A DNA stretch of 64,000 nt from a virus, in IMG/VR virus record IMGVR_UViG_3300029787_005452, positions 1 to 64,000 of that record. One strand, 5' to 3'. The position numbers and the translations under genes were made by a program. Below, one piece after another: positions 3,892-10,355 of the stretch. How positions within the stretch are numbered: position 1 is the stretch's first letter; every line of letters begins with the position of its first letter. The notes beneath the pieces were generated by a model. It searched no databases. It saw only the letters and a list, made by a program, of their open reading frames with translations, and was not told where the DNA came from.

Positions 3892-5076
3892 GTGAAAGCA
3901 CGACCTTTTTATTTCGAAATTAAAGATATGCTAACGCAGTTTGTTGCTGCGTTTGATGAAATAGTTATTGGTCGTTTCAATAGAGATAGGGAAGAACAAG
4001 ATAGAATTAAAGCGCGATATATATACGCTCCTAAACAAAGAGTTTTACATGATTTAATAAATGAAAATAAAACTTTAACATTACCAGTTGTATCAGTTAA
4101 TGTTACAGGTATATCTAGAGATCAAAATAGAGTTTTTAATAAACTTGATGGTTTTTATTATCAAGGTGTTATTGGAGAAGAAAAAGTATCTAGACGAATT
4201 AAAGCACCGGTACCTATTAATATTGCTTTATCAGTTTCAGTATTAACTAGATATCAAACTGATATGGATCAAATTTTAAGTAATTTTGTACCATTTTGTA
4301 ATCCGTATATAATTATCTCGTGGAAAGTTCCTGAAGCATTTAACTTAAGTGTCGATCAAGAAATCAGAAGTGAGGTATTATGGACCGGCGATGTAAGTAT
4401 GAATTACCCTACTGAGTTAAATGGTAATCAAAAAGCAAGAGTAACTGCAGATACAAGCTTTACTATTAAAGGTTGGCTTTTTAAAGATACAGATAACCCT
4501 GATGGTAATATATTCTTTATTGATAATAATTTTCATAATGAAACTCAGTTAGAAAATTATGATAACTATGAATCGTTGTCTGGTACTGATTATTCTTACC
4601 CATTATCTTCAGGTTTAATAGATAATATAGAGACAGTATCAATATCAGGTAGTCCTACCGTAACAGATATATTCTATAATAATGTGAGACTATTTGATAA
4701 TTTAACCTTAACTGCTGGTACAACTGGTAATGTTATTGTTAACGGTTATGGTTTTGAAAAGTTAGATAGTATATATTTAAGTAGTAATAAATTTGATAAA
4801 TTATCAGCCGATGGTATTTTTGTTAACGATAATTTATCTTATTTTGATAATTTTACAAATAATGTAAGTTTTTCAGGATTTGAATTATCATCTTATAATG
4901 TTTTTGGGGATAATGTATTATCATTTAATTTACCTTTATTTTCTGCTTCAAGTTCTTTAAGTGCTGACTTTACTTTTGTACTTTATAATTCTGCAGGTTA
5001 TGATTTAACTACCGATACATTGAACTCACAAACCTTAAGTAGTAATAACACTTTATTAACCTTTACTTTCCCGTAA
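3892..5076 (+). CDS. gp15: Tail sheath stabiliser / tail terminator (T4 gp15-like) with a C-terminal extension
   Basis: FYFEIKDMLTQFVAAFDEIVI, YIYAPKQR and FTIKGWLF motifs; next to the portal gene. Confidence 0.75.
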   Translation: MKARPFYFEIKDMLTQFVAAFDEIVIGRFNRDREEQDRIKARYIYAPKQRVLHDLINENKTLTLPVVSVNVTGISRDQNRVFNKLDGFYYQGVIGEEKVSRRIKAPVPINIALSVSVLTRYQTDMDQILSNFVPFCNPYIIISWKVPEAFNLSVDQEIRSEVLWTGDVSMNYPTELNGNQKARVTADTSFTIKGWLFKDTDNPDGNIFFIDNNFHNETQLENYDNYESLSGTDYSYPLSSGLIDNIETVSISGSPTVTDIFYNNVRLFDNLTLTAGTTGNVIVNGYGFEKLDSIYLSSNKFDKLSADGIFVNDNLSYFDNFTNNVSFSGFELSSYNVFGDNVLSFNLPLFSASSSLSADFTFVLYNSAGYDLTTDTLNSQTLSSNNTLLTFTFP

Positions 5077-5095
5077 AATAAATTAAATAATAATA

Positions 5096-6838
5096 ATGGC
5101 TGACCAACAAAACAGTAAACCATCTGGTTTTTTAAAAAATCTAGTTAATAAACTACCATATCAGTCTGTAGACTTTAATAAAGTTTTAGGAGATTTAAAT
5201 CCTAAGTATAATACTTTTGAAGAAACAGGTATGAGAAGAGTAGAAGCTTTAGCAAAAAATTCTATCTTTTATAATAATGATTTTAATAACAATGGTGCTG
5301 GTCAAATAAGTGTTGATGGTAATTATAGTTCATTAGTATATGCCAATGTAGAAGAAAATAAAGGTGGTCGTATGAGAGACTACCGCATAATGGCTGCCTT
5401 TTCTGAGATTAGCGATGCTTTAGATGAAATATGCGATGAATGTATAAACAAAGATGATAATGGTAATATTGTTAATTTAATCTTTAGAAATACTGATATA
5501 GATGAAGAGAAGCAACAAAATATAAAAGATGAATTTGAAAAATATATTGATTATTTCAACTTTGAAAAGAAAGGGTTTGAATATTTTAGACAATTATTAA
5601 TTGAAGGTGAGCTATATTTTGAGCATATTATTCATCAAGGTTATACAAATGATGGTATTTTAGGTGCAGTTGCTTTACCTACAGATTTAATTGATCCTAT
5701 ATATGATAATATACAAAATATGATCATTAAAGGTTATATTTTACGTAAACCTATATTTGATCCTAATAAACCTGAAAAAATAGAAAAGTTTGATTTTATT
5801 CCAATGGATGATAATCAAGTTTCATATATTAATTCAGGTATATGGAATCAAGATAAGACATTTAGATTACCTTTTATTGAAAATGCTAGAAGAGCATATA
5901 GACAATTATCATTAGTAGAAGATGCTATTGTAATATATAGGTTAGTAAGAGCTCCAGAGCGTTTAGTGTTTAATGTAGATGTAGGTAATATGGCTCCACC
6001 AAAAGCTGAAGCATATCTTAGAAAGCTTATTCAAGAGTATTGGAGTAAAAAGACTTTTGATTCTAATCAGTCTGGTCAAGTTCAAAAATTTAACCCTCAA
6101 TCAATGTTAGATTCATTCTGGTTTGCTAAAAGAGCTGGTTCAGAAGGTACATCAGTTACGCAGTTAGCTGGTGGTGCTAATTTAGGTGAGTTAGCAGACT
6201 TAATATATTTTGTAAATAAACTTTACAAAGCATTAAAAGTACCTCTTAATAGATTAAATCCTGAATCTACATTTGACGATAGTCAAAATATTTTAAGAGA
6301 AGAATTAAAGTTTGCTAAATTTATTATTAGAATGCAACAGCAATTTGCAGGTGGTCTTAAAAATGGATTTATAACTCACCTAAAATTAAAAGGATTCTTT
6401 GATGAATATGATCTTAAAGCTCCTAACATACATTTAGAGTTTAATGTACCAACTAATTTCTATGAATTAAGAGAGAGTCAGAAGTTAGAACTTAAAGCTA
6501 CTAACTTTAATAGCTTAGCTTCTAATGAATTTGTAGCTGCTACATATGCTCAGAAAAGATATCTTGGTTGGAACGATGTTGATATAAAAGCTAATAGAGA
6601 GTTTTTACGTAAGGATGCTGAGTTACAATGGGAATTACAACAAATAGGTTCAGGTGGTCCTAATTGGAGAGATGAAATGCAACCTGCTGGGGGAGAAGAT
6701 GCTGGTGGCGGTTTACCTGATGCTGGTGCTGGTGGTGTTAGCCCTGAAACACCACCTGACTTTGGAGGGGGACCCGCTGATGTAGGGGCTCCTGAACCAG
6801 TTGCAGCTGAAGCTCCAGCTCCAGAGCCTGAAGTTTAA
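5096..6838 (+). CDS. gp20: Portal protein
   Basis: EDAIVIYRLVRAPERLVFNVDVGNM, GGANLGELADL and ILREELKFAKFI; acidic P/G/A-rich tail. Confidence 0.97.
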   Translation: MADQQNSKPSGFLKNLVNKLPYQSVDFNKVLGDLNPKYNTFEETGMRRVEALAKNSIFYNNDFNNNGAGQISVDGNYSSLVYANVEENKGGRMRDYRIMAAFSEISDALDEICDECINKDDNGNIVNLIFRNTDIDEEKQQNIKDEFEKYIDYFNFEKKGFEYFRQLLIEGELYFEHIIHQGYTNDGILGAVALPTDLIDPIYDNIQNMIIKGYILRKPIFDPNKPEKIEKFDFIPMDDNQVSYINSGIWNQDKTFRLPFIENARRAYRQLSLVEDAIVIYRLVRAPERLVFNVDVGNMAPPKAEAYLRKLIQEYWSKKTFDSNQSGQVQKFNPQSMLDSFWFAKRAGSEGTSVTQLAGGANLGELADLIYFVNKLYKALKVPLNRLNPESTFDDSQNILREELKFAKFIIRMQQQFAGGLKNGFITHLKLKGFFDEYDLKAPNIHLEFNVPTNFYELRESQKLELKATNFNSLASNEFVAATYAQKRYLGWNDVDIKANREFLRKDAELQWELQQIGSGGPNWRDEMQPAGGEDAGGGLPDAGAGGVSPETPPDFGGGPADVGAPEPVAAEAPAPEPEV

Positions 6839-6881
6839 TTAAACTTTTAAGTTGATACCCACGGCCAGAATAGAAGTCCAC

Positions 6882-7759
6882 CAACTTTGTTATCGCATTT
6901 TTTTTAATTAATGCTTCTGTATGTTGCCATACAGTTCAGACTATATCTTCATCCTTTCGGATGCCGGACGCTCTTGGGTAGATTATTGTTGGGACTCACC
7001 ACCTAGTCGTTGCACCTTCCGCAGAACTTAAACCCTCTGCGGCTTGGCTCAGTATTGTCTCATAGAGAGTTCTACTGAATTCATCCAGTACGGGCATTAA
7101 AATTTAAAAGAACAAAAAAATATTTAAGCTACTTTAGCAAAAAAGCATTGATATGCAGAATCATCAACAATACCTCCACCACTACCAGTATTACTTCTTA
7201 TATAGCTATAATTAAAAACAAAAACATAGTAACCATCTTCTTTAGGAACAGGGTGGTTATTTTTAAAAACCTCAAATATATTATAATTTAAATCTCCTGG
7301 AGATTGAACTGAGAATATTTTCATCCCTACTCGACTACCTTTGAAAACTTCAAAAATTTGACCATCTTTAATTCGCATAGGTAGGCATCTAAATCTATGA
7401 CCATCTTTTAATTTTTGATTTTCACTTAACGCTCTATTTCGCTTTGCACCGTTAATTTGCGATAGAACATAAAGCTGTATTCTTTTAGTAGAATCATCAG
7501 CAAAGTCACCAAAGTCAGAAGCACTTCTAAAACTCTTAAATCCTATATCAAAAAGAGTAGGTAATATATATGCTTTTTTATGACCATCATTTGTTAAATA
7601 GTGATCAAATTCTACTAAATGACCATCCTTATGCAATGCATATGCTTTACCATCTTCTATACCATCAATAGCTAATTGGGTATCTCCTCTAAAACATGTT
7701 TTACCATTATTAAAATAAATACAATCATCTAAAATCTCTTGCATTGAAAAGACTTTTGA
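6882..7759 (-). ncRNA. Group I self-splicing intron (core 6917-7095 well supported; splice sites tentative)
   Basis: Minus strand: P3 CUGGAUG/CGUCCGG, P4 UUCAGUA/UACUGAG, P5, P6a CCGCAGAG/UUCUGCGG, R element GCAACGACUA, S element AAGAUAUAGUCU, P7 GACUA/UAGUC, P8 CAUCC-GAAA-GGAUG, P9 CUGUAUG-GCAA-CAUACAG; IGS GCCCGU (7095-7090) pairs with GCGGGU (7765-7760). Confidence 0.88.
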
Positions 7760-7828
7760 ACCCGCCGAATCCTCTGCACCGGGACTTTCAAATGATTGTT
7801 TATTTATATGAGGTATAGAAGGTATCAT
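7124..7828 (-). CDS. Hypothetical protein, probably mostly intron-encoded (internal ATG at 7744)
   Basis: 234-aa ORF coupled to the upstream stop (TGATG); ends about 30 nt before the intron IGS/P3; no recognised family. Confidence 0.7.
   Translation of the reverse strand: MIPSIPHINKQSFESPGAEDSAGSKVFSMQEILDDCIYFNNGKTCFRGDTQLAIDGIEDGKAYALHKDGHLVEFDHYLTNDGHKKAYILPTLFDIGFKSFRSASDFGDFADDSTKRIQLYVLSQINGAKRNRALSENQKLKDGHRFRCLPMRIKDGQIFEVFKGSRVGMKIFSVQSPGDLNYNIFEVFKNNHPVPKEDGYYVFVFNYSYIRSNTGSGGGIVDDSAYQCFFAKVA
7801..7808 (-). promoter_or_regulatory. T4-type late promoter TATAAATA upstream of the putative 5' exon
   Basis: Perfect TATAAATA; predicted +1 about 7795. Confidence 0.5.
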
Positions 7829-8130
7829 CAGAACTGATTTAGATTGCTGAAATAAGCAGATCTAAAGTAAACTGATCCAGAAATATATTGTGAATTAGTC
7901 TTAGCACTTACTTCATTTGTATTAGTAATACCTCTCAAAACCATACTTTCACTGGTTTTAATTAAAAAACGACGATCGTCAGTGGTATAATCATTATCAT
8001 AAATAAATAAATCTTGTCCTGATTTATTTGAAATTAAAACTTCACTAGCTGTAAAACCTGATAATGCAACCAAATTAGTATCAATTAGCATATTAAAAGT
8101 ATACGATTTATTTTTATTAACGAATGGCAT
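7828..8130 (-). CDS. Hypothetical late protein, beta-rich
   Basis: 100-aa ORF; TAAATA-N5-ATG. Confidence 0.7.
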   Translation of the reverse strand: MPFVNKNKSYTFNMLIDTNLVALSGFTASEVLISNKSGQDLFIYDNDYTTDDRRFLIKTSESMVLRGITNTNEVSAKTNSQYISGSVYFRSAYFSNLNQF

Positions 8131-8170
8131 ATAATTATTTAATATAATTGATAACTAATTAAATAATTAT

Positions 8171-9376
8171 ATGTCAAAATGTGAAATATCTCCTATATCC
8201 GGATTCCAAAGTACTAATCTAAATTCAAAAGTAGATAACTTTAATAGACTTAGTGATAGAATATTGAGAACGTTAGGTTATCCTTTTGCTAATGTAGAAA
8301 TACATAGAGATCAATTATTTGAAAATATAAGTATTGCTATAGAATATTTTAGTAAGTTTGCTGGCTACACAAAAGAATACCTTATATTCGATAGTAATTT
8401 ATATACAAAAGATTATGGCATTAAAATAGACGATTTATTTACTTTACAAAATACTGATACATTTAGAGAACAAAAAGATTTAAAAACTCTTAATAAAGAT
8501 TTCAACAAAGATATAGAAAATAATTCTCTTTTTGTATCAACTTCTGCAATACCAGGGTCTTTATTCCTGTCATCTTCAGCATTATCATCTACCTTTTACG
8601 ATAATATAACCGGTAGCTTTACTAGTATATCTGCTAATGATATATTTACAACTGATTTTTATAATGCATTAACCCAATTTTCAGATAATGAAACTCTATC
8701 TGGTATTGGTAGCTTATTTTTAGAAAAGAAACAGCAAGGGTTTACTGTAAAAGGTTCGTTAACATCTGTTGATGGTAATCCTAATACCGATAGTTCATAC
8801 AATAATAGCTTTGATTATGATATAATGGATTATAGAAAAGTAATGGCAGTTACTGATTTTGAAGAAGGTTCAACAACAGGTATCAATACTCTTTTTACTA
8901 TCGAGCAAACATTGGCTCAGCAAACATATTTTAGTTATGCTATGGGTAATTATGGTTTTGATTTAATTAGTTGGTATACTTTAAAGAACTGGTTAGAAAC
9001 TAGAGAAAAAATGTTAGCTACTAAACGTTCATATAGTTTTGATGAAAGAACGCAACTTCTAAGAATGTACCCTCAACCAAATGCAAGTAGTGATGTTAGA
9101 TTTTTTGGTGTAGTATCGTGCTACGTTGAACGACCTATAAGAGATATATTAAAAGAGCTTTGGGTATATCAATATTCATTAGCATTAACTAAAATGGCAG
9201 TTGCAAATATAAGAGGTAAGTATGGTAATGTAACTCTATTTGGAGGAGGTAGTTTAAATTCTTCAGACTTAATGACACAAGGATTAGCAGAGAAAGAAAA
9301 ATTAGAAGAACAGTTAATGACTGGTTCAGCTCCTGGTCAAGGAGATGCAGATCCACCTCTATTCTTTGTTGGTTAA
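8171..9376 (+). CDS. gp13: Neck protein (T4 gp13-like) with an S/T-rich insertion
   Basis: ILRTLGYPFANVEI, WVYQYSLALTK and RGKYGNVTLFGGGSLN. Confidence 0.88.
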   Translation: MSKCEISPISGFQSTNLNSKVDNFNRLSDRILRTLGYPFANVEIHRDQLFENISIAIEYFSKFAGYTKEYLIFDSNLYTKDYGIKIDDLFTLQNTDTFREQKDLKTLNKDFNKDIENNSLFVSTSAIPGSLFLSSSALSSTFYDNITGSFTSISANDIFTTDFYNALTQFSDNETLSGIGSLFLEKKQQGFTVKGSLTSVDGNPNTDSSYNNSFDYDIMDYRKVMAVTDFEEGSTTGINTLFTIEQTLAQQTYFSYAMGNYGFDLISWYTLKNWLETREKMLATKRSYSFDERTQLLRMYPQPNASSDVRFFGVVSCYVERPIRDILKELWVYQYSLALTKMAVANIRGKYGNVTLFGGGSLNSSDLMTQGLAEKEKLEEQLMTGSAPGQGDADPPLFFVG

Positions 9377-9895
9377 TTATTTAGCGTTAAATACTTCTAT
9401 TAGCTTTTGAATAACTATACTTGCATCTTCAACATCAATTGTTTGTGTTGTAGTTGTAGAGGATTTAACAGAAATTTCTTCTTCCGTTTCATAATCGCCG
9501 TAAACGTCTTCACCCTCACTAAATGATAGATCAAGTTCTTCTTCTTTATCATCATCTATAATTTGAGTTATAGGTTGTGTACACCCAATATCGGTTAATA
9601 TTACACTTAATAATTGATTTGTATAGCTTTCTTCTTTAGCTCTACCAACAAAATCTATAATTTCTGATTGAGTAAATTTACCTTTTAAATCACTTATAGG
9701 ATTTTTAAAACTACCATACGATAGTAAAGGTAAATATTTTATAGTTATATCAGCCGAGTCTTTTATTAAGAAGTAAGCACCTTTTTTATTAATGGTTACT
9801 CCAGTATCAGGTTTATCAAATGCAATTTTAGCAGGTCGCATTAAATTTCTTTGTCTTATTTCACTATTTTTAATGATTTTCTCTTCAAATGTCAT
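9377..9895 (-). CDS. Hypothetical acidic protein
   Basis: Start moved to MTFEEKII, behind TAAATA. Confidence 0.6.
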   Translation of the reverse strand: MTFEEKIIKNSEIRQRNLMRPAKIAFDKPDTGVTINKKGAYFLIKDSADITIKYLPLLSYGSFKNPISDLKGKFTQSEIIDFVGRAKEESYTNQLLSVILTDIGCTQPITQIIDDDKEEELDLSFSEGEDVYGDYETEEEISVKSSTTTTQTIDVEDASIVIQKLIEVFNAK

Positions 9896-10355
9896 AACTA
9901 TATTTATTAAAAAGAATAAAAAATTTAGACAAGGCATTTTTAAACCTATTAATTCAAAAAAATATATCGGTAAAGGTAACCCTACATATCGCTCTGGGTG
10001 GGAATTAAAATTTTTTAGATGGGCTGATTTAAACGAAAATATATTAGCGTGGGGAAGTGAGAATATTATTATACCTTATTTGAACCCTTTAGATGGTAAA
10101 GTTCATAGATATTTTGTTGATAATTATATTGTATTCAAAGATATAAATGGTAATAAAAATAAATTCTTAATAGAAATAAAACCAAGTAAGCAAACTCAAC
10201 GACCGGTTAAGACAAAATATAAAAAACAAAAAACTATATTATACGAGCAAAAAATGTATGTACAAAATACTGCAAAGTGGAAAGCTGCTAATGAATGGTC
10301 CAAAAAGAAAAATTGTAAGTTTCTTATACTAACTGAAAAAGAATTAAACATATAA
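9873..10355 (+). CDS. gp4: Head completion nuclease (T4 gp4-like); start uncertain
   Basis: KYIG...YRSGWELKF...WGSENIIIPY...HRYFVD...IEIKP; conserved part begins KKNKKFRQG after an ATT codon. Confidence 0.88.
   Translation: MIFSSNVITIFIKKNKKFRQGIFKPINSKKYIGKGNPTYRSGWELKFFRWADLNENILAWGSENIIIPYLNPLDGKVHRYFVDNYIVFKDINGNKNKFLIEIKPSKQTQRPVKTKYKKQKTILYEQKMYVQNTAKWKAANEWSKKKNCKFLILTEKELNI

What the first reader, a model, noticed from the sequence alone, without database searches (positions are those of the whole stretch)
6882..7759. Hidden group I intron that appears to carry an orphan ORF in its P1 loop
Seen: every canonical core helix (P3-P9, G-binding G-C pair in P7) lies on the minus strand between the portal stop and ORF 7124-7828. 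The sequence just before P3 is GCCCGU (7095-7090), a suitable internal guide. Its best partner, with the required terminal U.G pair, is GCGGGU at 7765-7760. The 3' end GAUAACAAAGUUG (omega-G 6882, alternative 6885) allows a GA/UU P9.0. Inference: an ~880-nt intron whose L1 encodes ~206 aa (from ATG 7744) with no LAGLIDADG, GIY-YIG or HNH motif. This could be a new class of intron-encoded mobility protein or maturase.
Basis: partly seen in the sequence, partly recalled or inferred. Interest (0 to 1): 0.85.

Follow-up and report, generated by a model that had tools for sequence, protein, structure and literature searches.

The report
Back-to-front group I ribozyme behind phage gene
A genuine self-splicing-type (group I) RNA enzyme sits right after the stop codon of a phage gene, but its cutting site lies behind it rather than in front, so it most likely cuts the message, and may close a 25-base RNA ring, instead of splicing out an 880-base intron that carries the gene.

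Summary
The group I core is real: Rfam scores 84 bits at 6917-7151(-), and P3-P9.1 covary across 19 related units. GCCCGU (7095-7090) sits just before P3 like an internal guide, and G6882 fits the family's 3' tail. The proposed P1 partner, GCGGGU at 7765-7760, is not supported. A relative reads GGUGGU at that spot. Upstream GGGU sites in relatives are scattered or absent. The ORF starts at 7828 and its family always ends ...AK[VLI]x*.

In about 25 distinct uncultured-phage loci the guide's partner lies downstream of the core. A GGGU follows the omega-G tail after a variable 7-211-nt insert. In the window, GUGGGUAU (6862-6855) pairs with AUGCCCGU; this was also predicted blind by RNAalifold and by the single-sequence fold.

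Every unit directly follows a relative of the 234-aa ORF. That protein has no nuclease or maturase signature, matches no known fold, and in three relatives lies in or beside the tail or tail-fibre module.

Best reading (about 50%): a natural guide-first, L1-permuted group I ribozyme that cuts after U6857 and may circularise 6881-6857. I found no published phage case. Earlier AI notes of this scan describe the same layout on other phage DNA. None of the chemistry has been tested.

The parts
7124..7828 (-). ORF-A, 234 aa (P0001). Member of a phage protein family whose natural C-terminus is ...DDxYxxFxAK[VLI]x*. Its stop codon UAA is at 7126-7124.
   Evidence: hhalign between subgroups gives 85% probability, E 6e-6
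7099..7123 (-). AU-rich spacer between the ORF-A stop and the guide. It is conserved only among close relatives and is 0-51 nt long across the family. No P1 hairpin is conserved here.
7090..7098 (-). Guide strand a' (AAUGCCCGU; GCCC at 7095-7092), the counterpart of the internal guide sequence of canonical P2-less relatives such as L038.
6895..7088 (-). Catalytic core. P3 7088-7082 with 6970-6964; P4 7078-7073 with 7054-7049; P5 7068-7065 with 7061-7058; P6/P6a 7048-7014; P7 7008-7004 with 6943-6939; P7.1 7003-6977; P8 6962-6951; P9 6934-6917; P9.1 6914-6895.
   Evidence: Rfam alignment; helix map; covariation counts; RNAalifold
6882..6894 (-). 3' tail GAUAACAAAGUUG ending in the presumed omega-G at G6882. 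The 3' splice site would lie between 6882 and 6881.
   Evidence: Tail conserved in the subfamily and in canonical relatives. UAACA is nearly invariant.
6857..6881 (-). 25-nt insert between the two splice-site-like positions. It holds an imperfect hairpin (GUGGAC...GGCCGU) followed by GGGU. This would be the exon of a permuted intron and the candidate RNA circle.
   Evidence: In relatives the insert (without GGGU) is 7-211 nt, is variable, and usually forms a hairpin of different sequence.
6855..6862 (-). Target strand a (GUGGGUAU). It pairs with 7097-7090 over 8 bp, including U6857.G7095. The predicted cleavage site (5'-splice-site equivalent) lies between U6857 and A6856.
6849..6854 (-). CAACUU, complementary to AAGUUG (6887-6882, including omega-G). 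This 'clamp' helix would bracket the insert.
   Evidence: 6 bp or more in 6 of 20 units against 2-3% in controls; it covaries in the I1-like group.
7760..7765 (-). It lies inside codons 22-23 of ORF-A and is not conserved in relatives.

Best explanation
The element at 7098-6849(-) is a complete group I ribozyme whose P1 helix is split in the reverse order. The guide strand (AUGCCCGU, just before P3) opens the RNA. The strand that carries the reactive U (GUGGGU|AU, 6862-6855) lies 3' of the core, 25 nt beyond the omega-G. This amounts to a natural circular permutation in loop L1, or a 'guide-first' ribozyme like the laboratory L-21 form with its substrate tethered to the 3' end. The ribozyme is co-transcribed with ORF-A. 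Inferred mechanism: guanosine or GTP bound in P7 attacks after U6857. That severs the ORF-A message from whatever is transcribed beyond it, which here is antisense to the converging portal gene. The freed U6857 3'-OH may then attack the bond after omega-G6882. This would release 6881-6857 as a 25-nt circle and leave the ORF-A mRNA ending in a folded ribozyme at G6882. What is shown is the core, its selection, the conserved reversed pairing and the strict linkage to ORF-A. All of the chemistry is inferred.
For: Core and selection. Reversed P1: in all 25 units with 3' sequence a GGGU follows the tail and a variable insert, at +230 to +292 from the guide in 24 units and at +432 in L154. The pattern used to collect these units specified nothing downstream of P4. 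The central G.U plus three C-G pairs are present in 19 of 19 units. The next pair covaries (U-A 10, G-C 2, G.U 2, unpaired 5), and the -4 pair reads G.U, A-U or G-C. RNAalifold predicts this helix without being told, and so does the single-sequence minimum-free-energy fold of the window (z -3.1). Canonical relatives with the same core use GGGU| with GCCC as an ordinary P1 in front of the core (L042, L038), so a' corresponds to an internal guide. The omega-G tail stays conserved, which suggests the 3' site is still used. A clamp helix joins the omega-G region to +2 to +12 after GGGU; it is enriched over controls and covaries (TATGCT/AGCATA, TTTGCT/AGCAAA, TACGCA/TGCGTA). There is no room for a front P1: the gap from stop codon to guide is 0 nt in L145 and L147. 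No terminator-like site is found between ORF-A and the portal gene.
Against: No experiment and no transcript data are available. The four central pairs never vary, so the helix rests on position, one or two covarying flanking pairs and blind prediction, not on full covariation. Five of 19 units have a G/A mismatch at the +1 pair. The insert hairpin is weak in the window itself (-1.9 kcal/mol, z 0) and absent in L145, L146 and L171. The insert joins the exon-distal end of P1, so omega-G is several base pairs away from the reactive U, and the clamp helix would have to open before a second step. Circles of 11-25 nt have not been shown for any group I ribozyme. No benefit to the phage has been demonstrated. 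Many of the loci are closely related, so they count as fewer independent cases.
Confidence: 0.5

Rival explanations
1. The a/a' helix is only structural or regulatory. The ribozyme fold is kept as a stable 3' cap of the ORF-A message, or as a switch that hides the GGG of downstream ribosome-binding sites, and nothing is cleaved at GGGU. Alternatively only hydrolysis at the 3' site occurs.
For: The helix closes the whole fold. In L138, L145 and L146 the GGGU lies 3-4 nt before an AUG and could serve as a Shine-Dalgarno element. No terminator is present. The geometry for a second step looks strained.
Against: A purely structural helix does not need an invariant U.G wobble at the position homologous to the 5' splice site of canonical relatives. 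P7, J8/7 and the omega-G tail remain invariant or nearly so, which suggests catalysis is under selection. The window, L003 and L176 have no downstream gene to regulate.
Confidence: 0.2
2. A conventional ORF-less intron at the 3' end of ORF-A. The 5' splice site would be in the stop codon (GCU U|AA, after U7126) or at Rfam's P1 (after U7142). The 3' site would be after G6882 or G6885. Splicing would then add a short C-terminal tail (...AKVA-CGLLFWPWVST* after G6882, -F-GGLLFWPWVST* after G6885).
For: Rfam aligns a P1 hairpin at 7147-7127. Homology among the window, L003-I1, L003-I2 and L138 begins at U|AAAUA. The three differences between the window and L003 in the first 12 nt after omega-G are synonymous in that frame.
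Against: Distant family members end AKLD*, AKID* or AKVG*, so AKVA is the natural C-terminus. Rfam places P1 differently in L003. The exon-side pairing at U7126 has two mismatches in five (read from the sequence). My own reading of the sequences gives unrelated tails after splicing: window CGLLFWPWVST, L176 WAHPRA, L003 SARAGSVMRII followed by a third-exon peptide. More distant units have a different spacer or none (0 nt in L145 and L147), which leaves no room for P1. The 'synonymous' changes also fit hairpin X: the A-to-C change restores a pair.
Confidence: 0.1
3. One reading: an ~880-nt intron whose 5' splice site is after U7760, with P1 formed by GCGGGU and GCCCGU. ORF-A would lie in L1 and be read in frame from the upstream exon. 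The spliced product would be a short peptide.
For: There is a 6-bp match with a terminal U.G. In the window and in L003 the only GGGU inside ORF-A lies in the first 70 nt. Canonical relatives of this core do have endonuclease-like ORFs ending just upstream of P2/P3 (L028-type, L060, L064). In some homologues similarity starts only near residue 24-30.
Against: The site is not conserved. L003 has GGUGGU there, and its own GGGU is 18 nt away at a different codon. L140 has no GGGU within its ORF-A, and none was found upstream in L165, whose ORF-A is incomplete on the contig. Other upstream sites come from W-V codons at unrelated positions. The +1 position never pairs at the upstream sites but does at the downstream ones. 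The N-terminal motif P-x-INK-x-x-[FW] recurs inside longer homologues (P0011, L138), so it belongs to the protein rather than to a foreign exon. The predicted spliced peptides differ between the window and L003 (my reading).
Confidence: 0.07
4. A decaying remnant of tandem intron copies. On this view the downstream GGGU is just the orphaned 5' splice site of a lost second intron, and the ribozyme has no present function.
For: Tandem units exist in L003 and a gutted unit in L154. A 15-nt direct repeat flanks the extra unit of L003 relative to the window.
Against: Core helices show many compensatory changes and no decay across lineages whose ORF-A proteins are only 12-60% identical. The orphan GGGU is retained in every single-unit locus and matches its own upstream guide at +1: C with G in I1 and L147, A with U in the window.
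Confidence: 0.08

Closest known systems
Canonical phage group I introns of the td-like kind with P7.1 (Rfam RF00028), including the canonical relatives fetched here (L042, L038, L048, L121)
   Same: The same core (P3-P9.1, P7.1), the same J8/7-P7 sequence, the same GAUAAC...G 3' tail, and in L042 and L038 the same GGGU/GCCC P1 with a U.G wobble.
   Different: In those introns the GGGU strand lies in front of the guide and the intron interrupts a gene; for example, the capsid-like exons in L048 join in frame. Here the GGGU strand lies behind the core, there is no upstream P1 or P2, and no gene is interrupted.
Engineered permuted intron-exon (PIE) constructs and trans-cleaving L-21-type group I ribozymes (established laboratory systems; my own knowledge plus reviews listed)
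   Same: The 3' splice site precedes the 5' splice site on one transcript, so back-splicing would circularise the piece between them. A ribozyme that begins with its guide and cleaves a paired substrate after U is the classical L-21 design.
   Different: PIE constructs are usually opened in P6, P8 or similar loops and carry long exons. Here the break is in L1, the whole core is in one piece, and the insert is only 25 nt (11-215 nt with the GGGU in relatives). This arrangement is natural, not engineered.
Natural circularly permuted group II introns of bacteria (Roth et al. 2021, PMC8637638) and the back-splicing giant group I intron of mushroom-coral mitochondria (Chi et al. 2019, as cited in PMC8637638)
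   Same: Natural self-splicing ribozymes whose splice sites are in reversed order and which produce RNA circles.
   Different: Either a different ribozyme class or a different host and scale. The coral case restores a mis-ordered mitochondrial gene. This element is a compact phage ribozyme fixed to the 3' end of one protein family.
Lariat-capping ribozyme (GIR1)
   Same: A group I-derived ribozyme that does not splice but cuts just downstream of its own core, which defines an mRNA end (as described in PMC8637638).
   Different: GIR1 has no P1, uses branching, and has its own fold. In the 5-kb Rfam scan around this element the only hit up to E = 1, apart from a 15-bit tmRNA-like chance match, was RF00028, and a P1-type U.G helix is present here.

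Membership tests
Group I catalytic intron (Rfam RF00028) | Conserved core P3-P9 with the P7 guanosine-binding helix | tested here: met
   84.4 bits against a gathering score of 50. Covariation in P3, P4, P5, P6a, P7.1, P8, P9 and P9.1, with P7 invariant in 19 of 19 units.
Group I catalytic intron (Rfam RF00028) | P1 helix with a U.G wobble, formed by an internal guide and a 5' exon that lies upstream of the guide | tested here: not met
   A U.G helix with the guide exists, but its U strand lies downstream of the core. No conserved upstream partner exists, and the spacer is 0 nt in L145 and L147.
Group I catalytic intron (Rfam RF00028) | Terminal omega-G at the 3' splice site | tested here: met
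   The tail GAUAAC plus about 6-8 nt ending in [U/C]G is kept in all units and in canonical relatives. In the window the G is G6882. Its use is inferred.
Group I catalytic intron (Rfam RF00028) | Interrupts a gene whose exons join into one continuous product | tested here: not met
   ORF-A ends at its family's natural C-terminus. No frame is conserved after the element, by my reading. The converging portal gene follows at 6838.
Group I catalytic intron (Rfam RF00028) | Self-splicing or GTP-dependent cleavage activity | not testable with these tools
   Needs in-vitro transcription and labelled GTP.
   No conserved 5' splice site exists upstream of the ORF. The ORF lies directly 5' of the guide but outside any demonstrable intron.
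   No Pfam or PHROG family. The model has pLDDT 74.7. Foldseek against PDB and BFVD gives nothing at E <= 0.001, and VIA-align gives a best Z of 2.9. A missing match does not exclude a novel nuclease.
Circularly permuted / permuted intron-exon group I ribozyme | 3' splice site (omega-G) lies upstream of the 5' splice site (U.G of P1) on one transcript, with a complete core | tested here: met
   In the window, omega-G 6882 precedes U6857. The same order holds in all 25 units with 3' sequence.
Circularly permuted / permuted intron-exon group I ribozyme | Back-splicing yields a circular RNA from the enclosed segment | not testable with these tools
   Needs RNase R or 2D-gel analysis, or junction RT-PCR for U6857-G6881.
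Lariat-capping ribozyme (GIR1) | Match to the GIR1 model; no P1 | tested here: not met
   Apart from a 15-bit tmRNA-like chance match, only RF00028 was reported up to E = 1 in 5000-10000. A P1-type helix is present.

The most novel reading that the evidence does not exclude
This is one member of a widespread family of natural guide-first (L1-permuted) group I ribozymes fixed to the 3' end of a tail-module phage gene. They cut the transcript with GTP at GGGU| and release 11-215-nt RNA circles. In some relatives (L151, L161) the added G would complete a GUG start codon at the 5' end of a leaderless downstream mRNA.
Probability: 0.4. Interest if true: 0.85.

Novelty: new variant of a known kind. 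Interest (0 to 1): 0.72.

Why it matters
Group I ribozymes are known in nature almost only as introns. A naturally reversed version, kept by selection in many uncultured phages and always attached to one gene family, would show that phages have reused the splicing chemistry for message cutting, 3'-end formation or small-circle production. It would also be a natural counterpart of the permuted intron-exon designs used to make circular RNA. It can be tested directly with a 300-nt transcript. It is also a warning for annotation: an Rfam 'intron' hit here does not mean a split gene, and the neighbouring ORF is complete.

Tried and rejected
1. Rfam's own P1 (5' site after U7142). Rejected because FAKVA is conserved as protein in distant homologues and because Rfam places P1 differently in L003.

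2. A splice site in the stop codon with a C-terminal extension. I favoured this early because three changes between the window and L003 looked synonymous. I dropped it when L176, L138 and distant units showed unrelated tails, variable or absent spacers, and a structural explanation for those changes.

4. Reading the downstream GGGU as P10 or as the 3' strand of a P2. The distance from omega-G varies from 7 to 211 nt, and the invariant U.G matches the P1 of canonical relatives.

5. The first AlphaFold run with 4 sequences gave pLDDT 35 and was useless. A 23-sequence alignment gave pLDDT 75, but no fold match followed. The ESM Atlas search gave only a 0.75-score lead, which is below use.

6. tblastn of three ORF-A types against 50,697 GenBank phages found no match. 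blastn of the region found only short core matches to other introns.

7. The first metagenome scan with the protein found nothing. The search for related loci with the broad alignment failed because no stretch was conserved enough.

The DNA around homologues P0004-P0014 could therefore not be examined, and an intron-less allele could not be sought there.

9. Six pattern matches (L156, L162, L166, L168, L174, L177) lack the core motif and were set aside.

Full report
**What is at the coordinates**

The window comes from a 185-kb T4-like phage record. It carries a T4-type portal gene at 5096-6838(+) and a gp15-like tail-sheath stabiliser gene at 3892-5076(+). On the minus strand, Rfam finds a full-length group I intron model at 6917-7151, with 84.4 bits against a gathering score of 50 and E 4e-21. 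It is the only such hit in the whole record. Directly upstream on the same strand lies ORF 7124-7828, 234 aa, which I call ORF-A. ORF-A has no Pfam or PHROG family. What remained open was where its ends and splice sites lie.

**Relatives**

ORF-A has homologues of 52-65% identity that all end ...YQC[FY]xAKVA*. Eight IMG/VR contigs, represented by L003, encode a 57%-identical ORF-A followed by two group I cores in tandem. The second core is 93% identical to the window's core over 272 nt.

A profile search of 1.8 billion representative proteins found more distant homologues, P0006 to P0014. These have varied N-termini, but all end [FY]xAK[VLI][ADG]. AKVA* is therefore the natural end of the protein. 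That argues against Rfam's own P1, which places the 5' splice site inside ...QCF|FAKVA, and Rfam aligned P1 differently in L003.

A 30%-identical ORF-A in L138 is again followed by a closely similar ribozyme. Pattern scans for the guide-P3-P4 sequence in viral and metagenome contigs then gave about 25 distinct units. A pattern that left the guide unspecified returned the same viral contigs plus one canonical intron.

GCGGGU at 7765-7760 does pair with GCCCGU over 6 bp. Several points count against it:

- At the same codons L003 reads GGUGGU. Its only GGGU lies 18 nt away, at a different residue.
- Across the family, upstream GGGU sites fall at unrelated positions, several of them created by Trp-Val codons.
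- L140 has no GGGU anywhere in its ORF-A. No upstream site was found in L165 either, though its ORF-A is incomplete on the contig.
- The N-terminal motif of ORF-A (P-x-INK-x-x-F/W) recurs internally in longer homologues, so it is part of the protein and not a separate exon.
- Met29, the suggested start at ATG 7744, is Phe in two homologues.

**A conventional intron at the stop codon**

I considered this reading seriously. It would put the 5' splice site at GCU U|AA and the 3' site after G6882. Homology among the closest ribozymes starts exactly at U|AAAUA. Against it:

- The exon-side pairing is poor.
- In more distant units the spacer between stop codon and guide differs in sequence and ranges from 0 to 51 nt. 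It is 0 nt in L145 and L147, which leaves no room for a P1 hairpin.
- The peptides that splicing would add are unrelated between the window, L176 and L003.

**What is conserved instead**

In every unit whose 3' side is on the contig (25 units), the conserved tail (GAUAAC, about 6-8 nt, then G) is followed by a variable insert of 7-211 nt and then GGGU. That GGGU pairs with the GCCC of the guide.

- In the window, 5'-GUGGGUAU-3' (6862-6855) pairs with 5'-AUGCCCGU-3' (7097-7090). This is 8 bp and includes U6857.G7095. It is the best partner of the guide within 1.5 kb upstream and 0.5 kb downstream.
- In an alignment of 19 units, the G.U and three C-G pairs are present in all 19. The next pair covaries (U-A 10, G-C 2, G.U 2, unpaired 5). 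The -4 pair reads G.U, A-U or G-C.
- RNAalifold, given no structure, predicts this helix together with P3-P9.1. The single-sequence fold of the window also predicts it (z -3.1).
- Canonical relatives with the same core (L042, L038) use GGGU| with GCCC as an ordinary P1 in front of the core. L038 has no P2, as here. The guide is therefore homologous to an internal guide sequence, and the invariant U.G corresponds to the 5' splice site, but it lies on the wrong side of the core.

Two further features fit a functional RNA that extends beyond the omega-G:

- The insert usually folds into a hairpin whose sequence differs between lineages. Examples are GUGGCC/GGCCGU, GGGGCC/GGUCCC, GGGCUC/GAGCCU and a GNRA-capped CCGC/GGUG. 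The hairpin is weak in the window and absent in three units.
- The omega-G region is complementary to +2 to +12 after GGGU. This match is 6 bp or longer in 6 of 20 units, against 2-3% in controls, and it shows compensatory changes in one subgroup. In the window it is AAGUUG 6887-6882 with CAACUU 6854-6849.

**The core is under selection**

Across the 19 units, 92.6% of cells are paired and 31 of 61 pairs show changes on both sides. No shuffle of 500 reached these values, and slid controls fall to about 35% paired. The matching ORF-A proteins are only 12-68% identical to the window's.

**Most likely mechanism (inferred)**

The layout is a group I ribozyme permuted in L1. The order is guide first, then the core, then omega-G, then a short enclosed segment, then the reactive GGGU|.

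1. Bound guanosine would attack after U6857. This cuts the ORF-A message free from downstream RNA, which in the window, L003 and L176 would be antisense to the converging portal gene. No terminator-like site lies there.
2. A second step would join U6857 to G6881. This would release a 25-nt circle and leave the ORF-A mRNA ending at G6882.

The retention of the omega-G tail argues that the second site matters. The geometry and the clamp helix make the second step less certain than the first.

**ORF-A**

Four subgroups share a C-terminal domain (...LRxGxxFxxL...DGxYVFxFxFGxW...DDxYxxFxAKVx). hhalign between subgroup profiles gives 85% probability and E 6e-6. With 23 sequences, AlphaFold gave a mainly beta model (pLDDT 74.7, pTM 0.75). 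It has no convincing match in PDB or BFVD: Foldseek found nothing at E <= 0.001, and the best VIA-align Z was 2.9.

In L140 and L167 ORF-A directly follows a tail-fibre gene. In L147 it follows a tape-measure module. In the window it lies with a 100-aa ORF on the opposite strand between the portal gene and another structural gene. A TATTAAATA motif sits 6 nt upstream of that ORF's start codon. None of this points to a nuclease or maturase. I read ORF-A as a virion or fibre-associated protein of unknown role. Why it is always coupled to the ribozyme remains unexplained.

**Evolution**

L003 has two tandem units. L154 has a gutted first unit, with the leader, tail and GGGU kept but the core deleted. 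L138 has a 22-nt duplication of the ORF-A 3' end. This shows that duplication and deletion are frequent at these loci. A tandem duplication of a canonical intron followed by loss of the outer parts is a plausible route to the reversed order.

**Novelty**

In the paper library I found natural circularly permuted group II introns (PMC8637638). That paper cites a back-splicing group I intron in mushroom-coral mitochondria. I found no natural reversed group I ribozyme in phages or bacteria.

Earlier AI notes of this same scan describe the same layout on other phage DNA (e1-5855838, e1-5373870, e1-5373894, e1-5802341, e1-5661718). I saw these notes only after reaching this reading. They are leads, not evidence.

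**Limits**

- No RNA data were available.
- The central four pairs of the reversed helix never vary.
- Many loci are close relatives of one another.

Noticed in passing
L151:6790-6830 and L161:590-620 (also L145, L146, L147, L138 downstream of their GGGU): In L151 and L161 the target reads GGGU|UG, and the downstream Cys-rich ORF runs in the frame GGG UUG.... A guanosine added at the cut would create 5'-GUG in frame, giving a leaderless start. In L145 and L146 (GGGU|AAAAUG), L138 (GGGU|AAAUG) and L147 an AUG follows within 3-7 nt.
   Followed up: partly
L003:4676-5171: Two ribozyme units lie in tandem, separated by a 15-nt insert plus GGGU and a 47-nt leader. The second unit could use either the upstream or the downstream GGGU. 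The window looks like a recombinant that kept the first unit's leader and the second unit's core.
   Followed up: partly
L154:2340-2500: A relic first unit: the leader, the tail UAUAACAUUUG and GGGU|AAAC are kept but the catalytic core is deleted. It sits directly before an intact unit whose insert is about 210 nt.
   Followed up: no
L138:3565-3615: A 22-nt tandem duplication of the ORF-A 3' end (UAUGCCAAAGUG occurs twice), which gives the ORF a stop codon 51 nt before the guide.
   Followed up: no
L028, L024, L031, L035-L037, L091, L108, L111, L129, L060, L064 (upstream of P2/P3): Canonical relatives of the same core have endonuclease-like ORFs that end just upstream of P2/P3. The ORF ends are HNH-like CxxCH, or ...AGGYRWKK-type C-termini.
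   Followed up: no
L138:4453-4538: A glutamine-riboswitch-like match (RF01739) scores 33.2 bits, just under the gathering score of 35. It lies downstream of the unit, among small ORFs.
   Followed up: no
window 8136-8144 (-): TATTAAATA, resembling a T4-type late promoter box, lies 6 nt upstream of ATG 8130 of the 100-aa ORF that precedes ORF-A. It is a plausible start of the transcript that carries ORF-A and the ribozyme.
   Followed up: no
window 5062-5145 (+): A tmRNA-like partial match of 15 bits (gathering score 47) inside the start of the portal gene; it looks like chance.
   Followed up: no
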